From positions 192,001-256,000 of the forward strand of contig CAVOUE010000006.1 in assembly GCA_963699545.1 (NCBI GenBank): DNA of 64,000 bases. Reading direction: 5' to 3'. This document shows positions 43,501 to 49,500 of the stretch, in pieces. Every line of letters begins with the position of its first letter. The stretch's first letter is position 1. The DNA comes from Nitrospirota bacterium (GTDB lineage Bacteria; Nitrospirota; Thermodesulfovibrionia; Thermodesulfovibrionales; UBA9159). The position numbers were made by a program.

Positions 43501-46500
43501 ACTCGGTCCCGGAGGGATAGAAGAACTGGAATTCACGGTCCAATTCCTCCAGCTGATACATTGCGACCGGCGCAGGAAGCTTACGGTCCAGGGAACCCTT
43601 GATGCCGTGGAACGCCTACGTGCAGCGGACGTGATAGCGGAGGGAGAAGCGGACCTCCTGCGTGATGCGTATCTTTTTTACAGAACCCTGGAGAGCTTCC
43701 TGAGATTGCAGGGAGAACCGGTTCTCAGGAAGACGGGGGTGACCGCGGCCGACCCGGCAGAGTTCATGGGCTTCAGCAGCGTCGGTGAACTTTCGGAACA
43801 GATAGAGCAGAGACGAAGATCGGTGAGCGAGCTCTTCGGGAAATATCTGCACTGAGGTCGTTATCGGTGAAGATATGATATAATTGAGAAAACTTCGATG
43901 TGCACGATAAGGATAAAACATGCTGAAACTCCGTGATGGAATTGTAGAGTTGTACAAGAAAGTTGCCACATCCATCCCTCCTGATGTGGAAGAAGCCATA
44001 AAAAAGGCTCTTCCCTCTGAAAGAAAACCCGGGGCGAAGGAGTCCCTGTCAAAGATCGCGCTCACCATTCAGAAATCAAGACAGACCCCGAGGCCTGCGT
44101 GCATCGACACCGGTATCCCCATCTTCAGAGTAAAGGTTCCACGGGGCTTAAGCCACACCGAGCTGACAAACACCATAAGGGAGGCCACTGCCGTCGCAAC
44201 ACGGAAGATACCCCTCGCCCTCAGCGCCGTGGACATACTCACCGGCGAGAATTCCGGCGACAACACCGGTTTCGGCTTCCCCGTCATCTATTTTTCGGAG
44301 GCGCCCGATGATACCCTCACTGTGGACCTCATGCTCAGGGCCGGTGAATGTGAGAACTATGGCCGGACCTACAGCCTGCCTGCGGAGGGACTCAGTGCCG
44401 GGCGGGACCTCGACGGGGTGAGGAAATGCGTGCTTAACTGCGTGAAGGAGGCAGGGGGGAAAGGGTGCCCGCCTTATACCGTAGGGGTAGGGATCGGTGG
44501 AACCCGGGACCAGGTCGCTGTCCTTGCGGCCCACCAGCTGTTCAGAAAGCTCTCGGATGAGAGCGAATTTCCTCTGATCAAAGAGCTCGAGCAGAGACTC
44601 CTCAGGGAGCTCAATGAACTGGGTATAGGTCCCATGGGAAACGGCGGGAACACCACGGCCATAGGAGTGAAGATAGGCTTCAACCACAGGCATCCCGAAG
44701 CGTACCTCGCGGAGGTGGTCCTGTCCTGCTGGGCAAACAGAAGGGGCCGCCTCATCTGGTGAGTTGAAGGGTCGTTTGTCCTCCTCTTAAATGAAGAGGA
44801 GGTGCAGGAGGGGCTAACTTTTCGCTGGAATTCCATAACTCCCCCTTACCCCCTCTTAGCTTAAGAGGGGGTGCCCCAAATAGTCGGGGCGGGGGCGTTA
44901 CTCCTTCCCGGCTGTTTGACTCGTCCCCTGTCAAGTGATACCCTTTAACTGTGAAGACCTTCGAGGTGATCGACATCTCAGGAGACGCCGGCATAAGGGC
45001 ATATGGAGGGACACTCCAGGACCTCTTCGTCAATGCCGCCATGGGGATGTACAGCCTCATCACCGACCCTTCAGCCATCAGGGAAGAAAGGCATATGGCG
45101 CTGGATATCGAGAGCCACTCCCTTGAGGGACTCCTCGTGTCGTGGCTCAACGAGCTGATATTCCATTTCGATACCTATGGATTTTTAGGGAAGACCATAC
45201 GCATAGCAACCCTCCGTAACAATACGATCTCTGCCCGCGTGTCGGGAGAAGAGTTCGACCCGGGAAGGCACGAGAGAAGGTTGCTCGTCAAGGCGGCGAC
45301 CTATCATCAGCTCAGCATAGAGAAAAAAGAAGGACAATGGGTGGCGGATATTATCTTCGATATTTAAGTTGACACTCTTTGTGGCCTTGCCGCAGGGTTA
45401 CCCTATTGGGTCATTCCCGCAAAAGCGGGAATCCAGAAAAAGGCACTGGATTCCGGGTCAAGCCCGGAATGACAAATAATAGATTTGGATACGCTGCGGT
45501 CTTGCCGCAGGGTATTTCATAGGAAGGAGGTGGTCTGATGGGCACTGAGAAGCTCAGGAGAATCGACAGCACAAAGATAGAGATCCCCGCTGATTACAAG
45601 CCCGGCATGCGGGTGAAAGGAGTCATCTACGTCGATGATGTCCTCGAAAAAAAACTTGAGAGCTCGTGCATCGAGCAGGTAGCGAATGTCGCGACACTTC
45701 CCGGCATTGTGAAGGCATCCATGGCAATGCCCGACATCCACACCGGATACGGTTTCTCCATTGGGGGCGTTGCTGCCTTTGACCTGGAGGAGGGGATAAT
45801 CTCCCCCGGAGGTGTGGGTTACGACATAAACTGAGGGGTCCGCCTCCTCAGGAGCAACCTCAAAAGAGAAGAGGTGGCTCCGGGGATGAAGGGCCTCGTG
45901 GGGGTCCTGTACAATGAAATACCCTCCGGTGTGGGGTCAAAGGGGAATATCCGCCTCAGCGCGGAGGAAGAAAGGAGGCTCCTTCTTAAAGGCGCACGGT
46001 GGGCCGTGGAGAACGGCTACGGAGACGCCCTGGACCTCCAGAATACGGAGTCAGGCGGCTGCATAGAGGGCGCCGACCCTGACCTCATAAGCCGGAAGGC
46101 TTACGAAAGAGGACGGGCGCAGCAGGGGACCCTCGGATCAGGCAACCATTTCCTCGAAGTCCAGTATGTGGATGAGATCTACGACGGGAAGGCTGCCGAT
46201 GCCCTGGGCATCTTCATGGATCAGGTGACGGTCATGATACATACGGGGTCCCGTGGGTTCGGACATCAGGTCTGCACGGATTTTATCGAGGTGATGGAAA
46301 GGGCAGCGGCCAAATACCGCATCGAACTGCCTGATAAGGAACTTGCGTGTGCACCCTTCGAAAGTCCGGAGGCAAAGGACTACCTTGCGGCAATGAGGGC
46401 GGCAGCCAATTACGCATGGGCTAACAGGCAGTGCATCACGCACTGGGCCCGGGAAACATTCCTTAAGTTCTTATCCACGACACCCCGGGAGCTTGGGATG

Positions 46501-49500
46501 AGCCTCATTTACGATGTGGCGCACAACATCGCTAAGGTCGAAGAACACGTGATGAACGGAAGAACGAGAAAACTGATCGTGCACAGGAAGGGCGCCACAC
46601 GGGCCTTTCCCCCGGGCATCCCGAACTGCCGGAAGCCTACAGGAACACAGGACAGCCAGTGCTGATACCGGGAGATATGGGCAGGGCATCCTTTGTCCTC
46701 GTCGGGACGGAAAAGGCTATGCAGGAGACCTTCGGCTCAACATGCCACGGCGCCGGTAGGGTGATGTCCAGGCACCAGGCCATACGCCAGGCAAAAGGCA
46801 GGGCCATATGGCGTGAGCTCGAGGACAGGGGCATATTCGTTCAATCAGCGGGCAGGGAGACCCTGGCGGAGGAGATGTCCGAGGCATATAAGGACATATC
46901 CAATGTGGTGGACGTTGTTCACAATGCAGGGATATCGAAAAAAGTGGCGCGGCTGAGACCGATGGGGGTCATAAAAGGATAGCGGACGACAGGGTGCGAA
47001 AAAGATCTGGCAGCTACTGCTGGAAGCCGATGGTCACTTCGTAACTATAAAGAACCTCTCCGCCCTGGCCGTCACTGAGCTGGACGCTGACAGGATGCCT
47101 GCCCGCATCCTTCTCCGCGACACGCCACGTTATCAAGCCGGTGGATTCTTCTATTGTCAGCCCGGCAGGGGCTTTCCTGAGCTTGAAGGTGACGGGGTCG
47201 CCGTCAGGGTCAGAGGCCTTGACCCTGAAAGAATACACGTTATTCTCAAACCTCTCATCGCCTCCCAGAGGCTTTGGCGCAGCGTTATAGATCTGAGTGT
47301 TTATCGTGATGGCCTGGCCGTCCGCTTCCCCGTCAAAAGGAGTGATCCTGACGGCTATCCTGTCACCCCGTTTAAAGGGTCCCTCAAGGCTGTTGTCTGT
47401 CCCTGAAGCATCTCCGTTCCTGAACCACTCATACTTGAAGGTCACCGTGTCCCCGTCCCTGTCGTCCCCTGCAAGATCCACGCGGAGATTATCAATTGCC
47501 CTGGGGAACCTCGGGATGATTTCGGCCCTTGCAACGGTGGGAAGAGCGTTCTTAACGACAACCTTGCCGGATTCGACCGCTTTTCCGTTCAGCGTTGCCT
47601 TCGCCTGGACAACATCCCCTTTCCTGAGCTCCTGCGAACTGAACTGGCTGCCCACCGCGCTGACAACGGGCCTGCCGTTCACAAACCACTGGATGCCGGA
47701 AACCTTGCCTGCGGGCGGTATTGAAAATATGCTCTCCCTTGTGGCATCGGCCGGAACGATCTGCAATGGCTGAAGCTGAGAAGCCACAGGAAGCGCAGAT
47801 CCCGTCCCCTGCGGCTTCTCGGATGAACACCCTCCGGACACGATGAACAGGCACGACAGAACGAGAACTGAACAAGCAGCACGTTCTTCCCGCCCTGTCT
47901 GCCAAGGCCGTCATCTTATGGCTGATCGCCGCCAAGCCCTTTTGTCTTCCAGCCCGTATACCCGGACCTCGGGGCTTTGGCGGACATCTCCTGGATCGGC
48001 TGGATGTTCCCCGTGGAGCTCTGCACAAACCCCTTCAGTTTTCCTTCCTTTGTGACCGCAAGACCGATAGACGCGGGCAAGCCCTTTCCGAGCATCGCGG
48101 TACGTGATACCGAATGGGTCGCCTTCTGCGCCTGGGTCTGCCCCGCATAAATATCCCCCTCCTTCTTGAAGATAAACTGGGAAGATGGGGTCGAGACAGC
48201 GCTGCCGGTGGTATACCAGAGGGCATACAGGTTGCTTGATCCCTCCATGGTACAGATATCCGTCCCCGGAATGTACGAAACGAACATCACAAGTCCGCCG
48301 AGGATGGACGGTTTTGTTGTGATCCTTTCCCCCGCATGAACGAGGGTGTTACCCAGAAAGTCAACAAGTTCCAATCCCATGGTACCAAAATATATGGCCC
48401 ACCCGTCGGCAGCTCCCACAGCGGCTCTGAGCGTATCGAAACCCACCCCGCCGGGACACGTGGCGCCGCCGCCGACGCATATCCTCATGTTGGACACACT
48501 CAAAAGATTGCTATACGTTTTAGGGCACCCCGCTGCAAGTCCATTCCAGCAACCGTCTGTTCTCCCGAACGCCATAGAAAGCCCCTGTATCAGTAGTGTT
48601 CCTGTCGTTCACCCCGATATACTGGCCTGTTCCGAAGAACAACCAGAGTTTACCATCGCTATCCATGGAAGCAGAGGGAGCAGCAGTGAACTTTCTGCTC
48701 AGGTCATTGGCATTGGTCACGTTGTAGAGCGCAGAGAGGGTCCATGTACCCGGTCCGGGAAAATACCGCCCGTTACGTTCGCCATAGTGTTCAATCTCCA
48801 CATCGCGGCATTCTTGGTGCTTCCCTGTGTCCAGCTTTCCCCGATATATGCCACATCAACGGTGAAATCCGTGTTCACGTCCACCGTTATGGGGTTCGCC
48901 ATAAAAGAGCTGCCGTTACCAGTCGGTTTCTTCCAGTAGTTGTTGTCCACCAGCCATGTACTTATCACGCCGTTGTCAGCAGCGGGGGTGGAGAGCTTTG
49001 TAACAAACACGTTTGCGTCCTGGAAGCCTGTCAAATTGGAGAGTCTGTCAAAATCCGTTGGTCCGGAGCCGAATATCGCATACCAGTCATTCCCCACCCT
49101 GCCCACAGCAGGATATGACATGGTCGAGCCCGAGATTAAGGACGCCCGTGTCCGTGGTGTCGAAGGTCCAGAGAAGTCTCGGCGGTTGCTCCGGGTCGGT
49201 GATGTCCAGGGCAAAGTAGGTCGAGCGCAGATGCTCTGTGCCGCCGCTGGCGGACTCAATGGGTATGGCCTTTGCTCCCGGCCTCCCTCCGTAACGCATC
49301 CCGCCGATGAGGATGGTCCCCCAGCAGACGGTGTCACCCGCCTTTCCCACATGCGTTGCGTCGCACGTGAAGATCTTGACGTCAGTGACCTTCGGCTTCA
49401 GATCGACATAGTAGACGTGGGTATAGTTCGGGTCGGTAAGCCACTTGAGATGCGGCAACGCCTCCCTCGGAATAAAGCTCCAGAGCTCATCACCCAGCTG

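What a model noticed while it worked through the whole genome (the two positions that open the first line are those of the whole stretch)
45538..46982. RtcB RNA ligase with UGA-encoded selenocysteine at the active-site cysteine
rtcB has an in-frame TGA (C6:237832-237834) in the motif GYDIN-U-GVR, at the position of the metal-binding Cys98 of Pyrococcus RtcB. A conserved hairpin follows it. I read it as selenocysteine. The Sec form is shared by the MAG's whole family and by many other Thermodesulfovibrionales, and it alternates with Cys forms.
Evidence so far: U99 aligns with Cys98 of 1uc2/4dwq. 51 of 146 RtcB-bearing genomes of the order show one TGA in the match, 16 of 16 in family f1. In the 110 loci read, 24 have TGA and 86 have TGC/TGT at the same codon. 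Mean MFE after the codon is -32.7 for 20 TGA-type against -14.0 for 83 Cys-type sequences, and only the TGA type gives a consensus hairpin. SelA, SelB and tRNA-Sec are present. TGA is the main stop codon. All U rows lie in one clade of 51 rows, nearly all labelled Nitrospirota, with 2-7 Sec/Cys switches.
(Added by a program. Inside this text positions count along the whole contig: contig position 192,001 is position 1 of the stretch shown here. "Call 12" and the like, gene names such as g00115 and contig names such as C1 are that model's own, and its searches are not shown. The text may have been shortened before it was handed on; [...] marks where a part breaks off. The agent that wrote the report below was given it as the finding of a first reader that could run no searches.)

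Follow-up and report, generated by a model that had tools for sequence, protein, structure and literature searches.

The report
Selenocysteine form of RtcB RNA ligase
This RNA-repair ligase gene spells its essential metal-binding cysteine with a UGA codon followed by an RNA hairpin, the hallmark of selenocysteine, and the same spelling recurs in many bacterial lineages where gene callers have cut the gene in two.

Summary
rtcB (45538-46982, +) has an in-frame TGA at 45832-45834 in GYDIN-U-GVR. It aligns with Cys98 of Pyrococcus horikoshii RtcB, the residue that bridges the two catalytic metals.

Reading it as selenocysteine is well supported:
- The TGA sits at the same codon in 83 of 317 genomes of the order. 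A reversed-pattern control found 0.
- All 44 TGA loci I read have it there, against TGC/TGT in all 23 Cys loci.
- A hairpin follows only in the TGA forms: mean MFE -33.7 against -14.7 kcal/mol, with compensatory pairs.
- tRNA-Sec, selA and selB are present, and TGA is the commonest stop codon.

- The trait is not confined to Nitrospirota. It also occurs in Thermodesulfobacteriota, Acidobacteriota, Myxococcota, Binatota and others. There the hairpin is different and shorter, with an fdhF-like GGUC loop.
- selD is missing from this MAG but present in 16 of 18 family relatives.
- The 1-nt deletion is very likely an assembly error, because rpoB, ileS and selB are also frame-broken.

My text searches found no natural Sec-RtcB in print. 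No protein or selenium data exist.

The parts
44951..45367 (+). archease gene (RtcB activator), directly upstream on the same strand
   Evidence: Pfam Archease PF01951, 136.9 bits, E 7.1e-40. An archease lies upstream in 37 of 42 TGA-type and 14 of 23 Cys-type loci that had at least 450 nt of upstream sequence.
45524..45530 (+). Shine-Dalgarno-like AAGGAGG, 7 nt before the rtcB ATG
   Evidence: Read from the sequence. Its function is inferred.
45538..46616 (+). rtcB, 5' part in frame 1 (residues 1 to about 359), containing the Sec codon
   Evidence: PF01139, 423.8 bits. PDB 1uc2/4dwq, E 2e-136, residues 6-359 on chain residues 5-359. Asp, His and His align with Asp95, His203, His234 and His329.
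45832..45834 (+). in-frame TGA, read as selenocysteine (U99), at the position of the metal-bridging Cys98 of PhoRtcB
   Evidence: Same codon in 44 of 44 TGA-type loci read, against TGC/TGT in 23 of 23 Cys-type loci. The motif is present once in 83 of 317 genomes of the order.
45835..45897 (+). SECIS-like hairpin inside the coding sequence. Outer helix 45835-45841 with 45891-45897. Core helix 45845-45861 with 45871-45886. Apical loop 45862-45870.
   Evidence: MFE -36.2 kcal/mol, z -3.83. 84.4% of cells are paired over 44 TGA-type sequences, and 7 pairs have compensatory changes (0 of 500 shuffles reach this). The same structure on 23 Cys-type sequences gives 60.2%, no better than shuffles. RNAalifold finds a consensus hairpin only in the TGA set.
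46606..46619 (+). site of a 1-nt deletion (run T3 C5 G3) that breaks the frame in this assembly only
   Evidence: A single gap against G309, G308, G302 and G303. The relatives have open frames of 463-492 aa. One residue (PhoRtcB 360) is lost between the two frames.
46617..46982 (+). rtcB, 3' part in the +1 frame, ending at TAG 46980-46982. It holds the His404-equivalent nucleophile.
   Evidence: Aligns without gaps to PhoRtcB 361-481 (E 2.5e-41) and T. thermophilus 2epg 367-487 (E 1.7e-46). Pfam RtcB profile positions 322-426.

Best explanation
The gene encodes a full-length RtcB 3'-phosphate/5'-OH RNA ligase in an archease-rtcB pair. Codon 99 is UGA and is decoded as selenocysteine.

Inferred mechanism. 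While the ribosome reaches the UGA, SelB carrying Sec-tRNA(Sec) binds the hairpin that starts a few nucleotides downstream, inside the coding sequence. It delivers Sec in competition with release factor 2. The selenolate then takes the place of the Cys98 thiolate, which in P. horikoshii RtcB bridges the two catalytic metal ions M1 and M2.

What is shown:
- The codon, its homology to Cys98, and intact other catalytic residues.
- Recurrence of the TGA in many species with protein-level conservation on both sides.
- A hairpin specific to the TGA forms, with compensatory changes.
- Sec machinery in the genome, and TGA as an ordinary stop elsewhere.

What is inferred:
- That SelB binds this particular hairpin.
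- That selenium is in the protein.
- What Sec buys. My best guesses are resistance to irreversible oxidation of the metal-bridging residue, or an altered metal preference.

The frame break near the 3' end is an assembly error, not biology.
For: 1. Identity and position. PF01139 at 423.8 and 139.9 bits. PhoRtcB 1uc2/4dwq at E 2e-136 with U99 on Cys98. The C-terminal part aligns without gaps to residues 361-481, so His404 is present. Cys98 ligates both M1 and M2, and its alanine mutant loses all ligation steps (PMC9745838, passages read).

2. Recurrence.
- The pattern G-Y/F-D-I-N-TGA-G-V occurs once in each of 83 of 317 genomes of the order. The reversed control gave 0 in every genome.
- In the top 150 protein matches, 44 carry exactly one TGA. 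In all 44 it is this codon. The 23 loci read without a stop have TGC (19) or TGT (4).
- Flanking codons vary synonymously. Examples are GGN and GTN third bases and CGN/AGR arginine codons after the TGA. So the stretch after the TGA is under protein-level selection.

3. Hairpin.
- Mean MFE of the 75 nt from the codon is -33.7 (sd 3.6, n=44) for TGA forms against -14.7 (sd 5.4, n=23) for Cys forms.
- 84.4% of cells are paired against 60.2%. Seven compensatory pairs are reached by 0 of 500 shuffles. Slid controls give 40-60%.
- A consensus fold appears only in the TGA set, -11.68 against -1.23 kcal/mol.
- One Cys form (G010, TGT) keeps the whole hairpin at -33.4 kcal/mol, as expected for a recent Sec-to-Cys change.

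4. Machinery.
- tRNA-Sec with anticodon TCA, selA at 607 bits, selB at 302 bits.
- selA is in 283 of 317 genomes of the order and in 77 of the 83 TGA-type genomes.
- selD is in 16 of 18 family relatives and is itself a TGA gene.
- FdhA of G000 has an in-frame TGA with a GGUCU-loop hairpin like that of E. coli fdhF.

5. No reassignment of TGA. It closes 750 of 1438 open frames of 300 codons or more.

6. Beyond the order.
- The non-Nitrospirota loci carry short hairpins whose loop is mostly GGUC, GGUU or RGUYU, 22-26 nt after the UGA.
- selA is in 4 of 5 such genomes tested.

7. Frame break as artefact.
- It is a single-base gap in a homopolymer stretch against four relatives.
- rpoB is split into two frames, ileS is in at least five pieces, and selB is split by an extra base in a homopolymer stretch.
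Against: - There is no selenium, protein or expression evidence of any kind. No sequencing run holding this DNA was listed.
- The Nitrospirota-type hairpin has a 9-nt A-rich apical loop. It lacks the GGUC-type loop seen in the FdhA hairpin of the same genome and in E. coli fdhF. SelB recognition of it is therefore an assumption.
- No Rfam family matched any of 20 loci.
- selD was not found in G000. The best match is a ThiL-like protein at 66.9 bits against a cut-off of 125, and the genome is 86.9% complete.
- selB of G000 is frame-broken.
- Six of the 83 TGA-type genomes gave no selA match at E 1e-60. Two of them are 97-98% complete.
- One Gemmatimonadales genome with the TGA form gave no selA match.
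- For the short hairpin types the energy contrast is modest. Within the same phyla, nt 11-50 average -11.7 (n=60) for Sec against -9.3 (sd 5.3, n=16) for Cys.
- An engineered P. horikoshii RtcB with Sec at position 98 underwent spontaneous peptide cleavage (PMC4150793, passages read). So Sec at this site is not automatically benign.
Confidence: 0.9

Rival explanations
1. Pseudogene: the TGA is a premature stop and rtcB is dead in these organisms.
For: G000 carries both a TGA and a frameshift in the gene. Gene callers in public databases end the ORF at this TGA: 110 of the best 120 short relatives are 97-98 aa long.
Against: - The same codon is TGA in 83 of 317 species-level genomes, and in 119 or more loci elsewhere.
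- Protein identity is 73-88% on both sides of the stop, with no other stops.
- Codons after the TGA change synonymously.
- All catalytic residues are kept.
- In most of these genomes it is the only RtcB match.
Confidence: 0.02
2. UGA read-through or recoding to a standard amino acid (Cys, Trp or Gly), stimulated by the hairpin, without selenium.
For: The Nitrospirota-type hairpin lacks the canonical GGUC-type loop present in the FdhA hairpin of the same genome. selD is missing from G000. No selenium data exist.
Against: - The codon replaces Cys and no other residue. It alternates only with TGC/TGT, the signature of Sec/Cys pairs.
- The order is almost uniformly equipped with selA, in 283 of 317 genomes.
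- TGA is the commonest stop.
- In other phyla the same codon is followed by fdhF-like GGUC-loop hairpins.
- ARAGORN reported no other tRNA reading TGA besides tRNA-Sec.
Confidence: 0.05
3. Split enzyme: a 98-residue N-terminal peptide and a separately initiated C-terminal protein (for example from GTG 45874) assemble into RtcB without residue 99.
For: A GTG-started ORF, 45874-46665, exists downstream of the TGA.
Against: - The 13 codons between the TGA and that GTG are conserved as protein (G-V-R invariant, synonymous third-base changes) in 44 sequences. They would not be translated in this model.
- The split enzyme would lack the metal-bridging residue, whose loss abolishes activity.
- I saw no ribosome-binding site before the GTG in the sequence.
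Confidence: 0.02
4. In this one organism the Sec trait is decaying: the frameshifts in rtcB and selB and the missing selD are real, so this copy is non-functional although the family's gene is a true selenoprotein gene.
For: rtcB and selB are both frame-broken, and selD was not found in G000.
Against: - Essential genes are broken in the same way: rpoB is in two frames and ileS is in at least five pieces with stops.
- The breaks in rtcB and selB sit in homopolymer stretches.
- The genome is 86.9% complete, in 13 contigs.
- Both same-genus relatives have an intact rtcB and selD.
- FdhA of G000 keeps its TGA and hairpin.
Confidence: 0.05

Closest known systems
Pyrococcus horikoshii RtcB (PDB 1uc2, 4dwq and others), a GTP- and Mn-dependent 3'-phosphate/5'-OH RNA ligase
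   Same: Same family and length. E 2e-136 over residues 6-359 and 2.5e-41 over the last 121 residues. The ligands Asp95, His203, His234 and His329 and the nucleophile His404 are all matched. An archease partner gene lies next to it.
   Different: The metal-bridging Cys98 is replaced by a UGA codon with a downstream hairpin. There is no intein.
Engineered P. horikoshii RtcB U98 (Haruna et al. 2014, PMC4150793; passages read)
   Same: Selenocysteine at exactly this active-site position.
   Different: That protein was made artificially from a UAG codon with an engineered EF-Tu system and no SECIS. It cleaved itself spontaneously. The forms found here are natural, UGA-encoded, followed by a hairpin, and conserved across many species.
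E. coli formate dehydrogenase H (fdhF), Sec140 with its in-frame SECIS
   Same: An in-frame UGA at a metal-ligand position followed at once by a coding-region hairpin. The non-Nitrospirota RtcB hairpins share the CAGGUCUG-type apical part, one codon further from the UGA. The fdhF sequence was read from NC_000913.3 (RtcB hairpins).
   Different: The enzyme is an RNA ligase, not a redox enzyme. The Nitrospirota-type hairpin in this window is longer, has a 9-nt A-rich loop about 27 nt after the UGA, and has no GGUC.
Human RTCB and its protector PYROXD1
   Same: The same conserved active-site cysteine, described there as prone to metal-induced oxidative inactivation (abstracts of PMC12263435 and PMC10653391 seen in the listing). 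PhoRtcB Cys98 was seen oxidised to sulfonic acid (PMC9745838).
   Different: Eukaryotes protect the Cys with a partner oxidoreductase. These bacteria may instead replace it with Sec. That is an inference and was not tested.

Membership tests
RtcB RNA ligase (Pfam PF01139) | Significant match to the family profile over the whole length | tested here: met
   423.8 bits (profile positions 1-307) and 139.9 bits (positions 322-426), against a cut-off of 27.
RtcB RNA ligase (Pfam PF01139) | Binuclear metal ligands (Asp95, Cys98, His203, His234, His329 in PhoRtcB numbering) and the His404 nucleophile | tested here: met
   All align identically except position 98, which is the UGA codon. The roles of the ligands are taken from PMC9745838.
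RtcB RNA ligase (Pfam PF01139) | GTP- and Mn-dependent joining of 3'-phosphate and 5'-OH ends | not testable with these tools
   This needs an enzyme assay.
Bacterial selenoprotein (SelB/SECIS-dependent UGA decoding) | In-frame UGA aligned with Cys in homologues, with conservation on both sides | tested here: met
   44 of 44 TGA loci against 23 of 23 TGC/TGT loci at the same codon. Identity is 73-88% across the stop.
Bacterial selenoprotein (SelB/SECIS-dependent UGA decoding) | Stem-loop immediately downstream of the UGA, conserved in the Sec forms | tested here: met
   for the Nitrospirota type. for the two shorter types.
Bacterial selenoprotein (SelB/SECIS-dependent UGA decoding) | Apical loop with the G-U motif used by E. 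coli SelB (that this is the SelB determinant is recalled, not from a call) | tested here: inconclusive
   A G-G-U-C type loop is present in most non-Nitrospirota hairpins and in G000 FdhA. It is absent from the hairpin in this window, whose loop is A-rich with 9 nt.
Bacterial selenoprotein (SelB/SECIS-dependent UGA decoding) | selA, selB, selC (tRNA-Sec) and selD in the genome | tested here: inconclusive
   tRNA-Sec, selA and selB were found, though selB is frame-broken in the assembly. selD was not found in G000, which is 86.9% complete. It is present in 16 of 18 family relatives, including both of the same genus.
Bacterial selenoprotein (SelB/SECIS-dependent UGA decoding) | Selenium in the polypeptide | not testable with these tools
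   This needs 75Se labelling, ICP-MS or peptide mass spectrometry.

The most novel reading that the evidence does not exclude
RtcB is a widespread selenoenzyme that has gone unrecognised. It would be the first selenoprotein acting in RNA ligation and repair, and it uses a selenolate to bridge a binuclear metal centre in a non-redox reaction. The Sec form has been gained or lost repeatedly (at least 11 state changes on a quick tree) and is served by at least two unrelated hairpin designs. It exists because the bridging cysteine is the enzyme's oxidation-sensitive weak point. That is the problem eukaryotes solve with PYROXD1. Under this reading, selenium supply would gate RNA repair capacity in these bacteria.
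Probability: 0.4. Interest if true: 0.8.

Novelty: new variant of a known kind. Interest (0 to 1): 0.62.

Why it matters
RtcB is a central RNA repair and tRNA-splicing ligase. Its metal-bridging cysteine is essential and is known to be inactivated by oxidation.

A natural Sec version offers three things:
- A ready-made comparison (U against C) for how the bridging ligand tunes metal choice, guanylylation and oxidation resistance.
- A nucleic-acid ligase added to the list of prokaryotic selenoproteins. I recall that list as being dominated by redox enzymes. The 2026 review I searched has no ligase entry in its main text.
- A systematic annotation error exposed. Thousands of database ORFs of about 97-98 residues named RtcB or 'hypothetical' are probably the front halves of Sec-RtcB genes. 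NCBIfam has no Sec-aware RtcB model.

The coexistence of two hairpin designs behind the same codon in orthologues also gives a natural test set for SelB-SECIS recognition.

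Tried and rejected
- **Rfam.** The gathering-threshold scan of the window found only rRNA and tRNA. The E-value scan of 20 Sec-type loci found no SECIS family, only one chance-level hit.
- **Sequencing runs.** None was listed for 45400-47100. So I could not test expression or check the frameshift in reads.
- **Supplements.** They may list families that the main text does not.
- **UPF0027 search.** The search combining UPF0027 with Sec terms is uninformative. The ten papers listed hold no UPF0027, and the other 263 were not seen.
- **RNAalifold on the 68 distinct D-type sequences.** It did not return the GCUCA/UGAGC hairpin, because the register of the 3' arm differs among subtypes. 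For that type I rely on single-sequence folds and on the list of most common sequences from the same call.
- **Programmed frameshift at 46606-46619.** Rejected, because four relatives have the extra base.
- **Global TGA reassignment.** Rejected.
- **Single origin of the Sec form.** I did not test it with an AU test. The quick tree rests on fragments of at most 267 residues, and its deep branches are unreliable.
- **Total number of species.** I did not try to count them all.

Full report
**1. What is in the window**

- An archease gene lies at 44951-45367 (Pfam PF01951).
- A 170-nt spacer follows, then AAGGAGG and an ATG at 45538.
- The frame opened there runs to a TGA at 45832-45834 and, read through, continues to about 46616.
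- The first 359 residues match Pfam RtcB (423.8 bits) and P. horikoshii RtcB 1uc2/4dwq at E 2e-136. Codon 99 lies on Cys98, within GYDIN-C-GVRL.
- The remaining 121 residues are in the +1 frame (46617-46979, stop TAG 46980-46982). They align without gaps to PhoRtcB 361-481, which puts a histidine on the nucleophile His404.
- Between the two frames exactly one residue (PhoRtcB 360) is missing.
- Against four relatives, G000 lacks one base in TTTCC-CCCGGG-CAT at 46606-46619.

**2. Is the frame break biology?**

Very probably not.
- Relatives of the same genus and family have open frames of 463-492 residues through this point.
- In G000 itself, rpoB is split into two frames.
- ileS is in at least five pieces with stops.
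- selB is split by an extra base in a homopolymer stretch.
- rpoC and selA are intact.

So four of the six long genes I looked at are frame-broken, essential ones included. This is what an assembly with uncorrected 1-nt indels looks like. I could not confirm it with reads, because no run was listed.

**3. Is the TGA more than chance or decay?**

- RtcB is found in 286 of 317 genomes of the order.
- A DNA pattern for G-Y/F-D-I-N-TGA-G-V matches once in each of 83 of the 317 genomes. The reversed pattern matches nowhere.
- Counts by family, without G000: f1 16/18, f2 2/3, f3 0/6, f4 0/1, f5 11/68, f6 14/23, f7 2/11, f8 1/12, f9 10/22, f10 4/57, f11 0/21, f12 1/20, f13 21/54.
- One of the two f1 genomes without the pattern (G299) has a TGA inside a match cut by a contig end. 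The other (G306, 63% complete) has no RtcB match.
- Of the 150 best protein matches, 44 have exactly one TGA and 106 have none. A further 153 matches were not listed.
- I read all 44 TGA loci and the 23 stop-free loci that the tool had fetched. The TGA is at this codon in 44 of 44. The others have TGC (19) or TGT (4).
- Around the TGA the codons change synonymously. Arginine after it alternates between CGN and AGR.
- Protein identity to G000 is 73-88% across the stop.

This rules out a pseudogene and a split gene.

**4. The hairpin**

- The 72 nt around the codon fold at -36.2 kcal/mol, z -3.83.
- Over 75 nt from the codon, TGA forms average -33.7 (sd 3.6, n=44) and Cys forms -14.7 (sd 5.4, n=23).
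- I took a structure from one relative: core helix at columns 14-30 with 40-55, outer helix at 4-10 with 60-66.
- That structure has 84.4% of cells paired in the TGA alignment and 7 pairs with compensatory changes. No shuffle out of 500 reaches this. Slid controls give 40-60%.
- On the Cys alignment the same structure gives 60.2%, no better than shuffles (427 of 500 reach it).
- RNAalifold finds a hairpin only in the TGA set.
- Caveat: the structure was derived from one of these sequences, and kin are not independent.
- One Cys form (G010, TGT) keeps the complete hairpin at -33.4 kcal/mol. I read this as a recent Sec-to-Cys replacement.

**5. Sec machinery and code**

- G000 has tRNA-Sec with anticodon TCA, selA at 607 bits and selB at 302 bits, frame-broken.
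- selD was not found. The best match is a ThiL-like ORF at 66.9 bits, below the cut-off of 125. The genome is 86.9% complete.
- 16 of 18 other f1 genomes, including both of the same genus, have selD. It is itself a TGA gene.
- selA is in 283 of 317 genomes of the order, so Sec use is the rule there.
- 77 of the 83 TGA-type genomes have selA. The six without are 77, 83, 84, 92, 97 and 98% complete.
- G000 FdhA carries an in-frame TGA followed by a GGCC-GGUCU-GGCC hairpin. It sits at the same distance as the GCA-GGUC-UGC hairpin of E. coli fdhF, which I read from NC_000913.3.
- TGA closes 750 of 1438 long open frames, so it is an ordinary stop.

**6.

- The titles and NCBI ranks place the Sec rows as follows: Thermodesulfobacteriota 28, Acidobacteriota 23, Nitrospirota 20, Myxococcota 8, Pseudomonadota-labelled 5, Binatota 2, and one each in Eiseniibacteriota, Gemmatimonadota and Planctomycetota. 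Sixteen are unplaced.
- 116 of the 119 Sec loci gave 75 nt of downstream sequence.
- By simple sequence rules the 149 distinct Sec rows fall into three hairpin classes:
  - N, 64 rows: the long Nitrospirota type.
  - D, 69 rows: most often GCGCUCA-GGUC-UGAGC.
  - B, 15 rows: for example GAAGACC-AGUUU-GGUCUUC.
  - One row was unclassified.
- D and B put a G-U-containing loop 22-26 nt after the UGA, like fdhF but one codon further on.
- Their folding energy over nt 11-50 is -11.9 (D) and -12.1 (B), against -6.9 (sd 4.6) for all 139 Cys rows. Within the same phyla it is only -11.7 (n=60) against -9.3 (n=16). For these types the argument rests more on the conserved loop motif than on energy.
- selA is present in 4 of 5 such genomes tested. 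One Gemmatimonadales genome gave none.
- Adding the 83 genomes of the order to the 85 non-N rows gives roughly 170 species-level genomes as a floor.

**7. Evolution**

- I built a FastTree tree of 288 distinct fragments of at most 267 residues, with the Sec/Cys column masked.
- Rows with fewer than 180 residues and 7 duplicates were dropped from the 295 usable rows.
- The tree needs at least 11 Sec/Cys changes. With midpoint rooting it has 20 maximal all-Sec clades.
- The large Sec clades are uniform in hairpin class.
- The tree is quick, short and unrooted in truth. It shows repeated switching, but not its direction and not the number of origins.
- One genome (G001) holds both a Cys-type and a Sec-type RtcB.

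**8. Mechanism**

*Shown:* everything in sections 1-6.

*Inferred:* SelB with Sec-tRNA(Sec) binds the hairpin and inserts Sec at codon 99. The selenolate replaces the thiolate that bridges M1 and M2.

*From the literature:*
- In PhoRtcB, Cys98 ligates both metals, its alanine mutant is dead, and it has been seen oxidised to sulfonic acid (PMC9745838, passages).
- Human RTCB's active-site cysteine is described as prone to oxidative inactivation and protected by PYROXD1 (abstracts seen in the listing).

*My guess:* Sec protects against irreversible oxidation or shifts metal preference.

*Open points:*
- The hairpin in this window lacks the GGUC-type loop of the same organism's FdhA.
- An engineered PhoRtcB U98 cleaved itself (PMC4150793, passages).

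**9. Novelty**

- Full-text searches for RtcB with selenocysteine gave 11 papers.
- RtcB with selenoprotein gave 7 papers.
- Selenoproteome with bacteria and 'RNA ligase' gave 2 papers.
- 'Splicing ligase' with 'Sec-containing' gave 1 paper.
- Judged from titles and the starts of the abstracts, the only relevant item across these searches is the engineered U98 protein. I read passages of that one paper.
- The 2026 review of prokaryotic selenoproteomes has no 'ligase', 'splicing' or 'UPF0027' in its main text.
- The deep-Sep paper (main text and 3 supplements) and the 2016 ISME J survey (4 supplements) have none of RtcB, 'ligase' or 'splicing'.
- NCBIfam offers only generic and intein RtcB models, all below their cut-offs.
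- In the protein collection, 3081 clusters of 53-172 residues match the 98-residue N-terminal piece. 110 of the best 120 are 97-98 residues long. They are named 'tRNA-splicing ligase RtcB', 'RtcB family protein' or 'hypothetical protein'.
- Subscription journals are outside the library, so prior mention cannot be excluded.

**10. Verdict**

This is a genuine selenoprotein form of RtcB and, as far as I can search, an undescribed one. I put the confidence in the Sec reading at about 0.9. The G000 copy carries an assembly indel.

Noticed in passing
window 3677-6084 (- strand); also G000:C12:38396-42287 and G000:C3:318143-319991: ileS is in at least five pieces with in-frame stops. rpoB is split into two frames. 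selB is split by one extra base in a homopolymer stretch. The assembly carries many 1-nt indels, so any frameshift in this genome should be distrusted.
   Followed up: partly
window 45410-45475, with a copy at window 61370-61433: The archease-rtcB spacer contains a palindromic repeat of about 66 nt (two adjacent hairpins). Copies at 85-95% identity lie elsewhere in the genome (C10:71359-71426, C5:236178-236243), along with shorter partial copies. It looks like a small REP- or MITE-like element.
   Followed up: partly
G001:C45:17455-18525 and G001:C80:73916-74986: One genome of family f2 has both a Cys-type and a Sec-type RtcB gene.
   Followed up: no
L022:1795-1869 (G010, family f4): An RtcB with TGT at the Sec position still has the complete Nitrospirota-type hairpin (-33.4 kcal/mol). 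This looks like a recent Sec-to-Cys replacement that left a fossil SECIS.
   Followed up: partly
G000:C9:40527-42527, and G000:C3:235018-235791: Formate dehydrogenase alpha and a second molybdopterin oxidoreductase each carry an in-frame TGA followed by a GGCC-(G/A)GUCU-GGCC hairpin. It is very like the E. coli fdhF SECIS and unlike the RtcB hairpin of the same genome.
   Followed up: partly
L192 (G305:C57:7793-8716) and 16 other selD matches in family f1: SelD of this family is itself a selenoprotein gene, with one TGA near the N terminus in 17 of the 18 matches. G000 has no selD over the cut-off.
   Followed up: partly
window 8024-13617: A complete rRNA operon (16S, tRNA-Ile, tRNA-Ala, 23S, 5S).
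   Followed up: no
window 43920-44762: A class I fumarate hydratase N-terminal-domain gene (Pfam Fumerase, 219.5 bits) lies just upstream of the archease.
   Followed up: no
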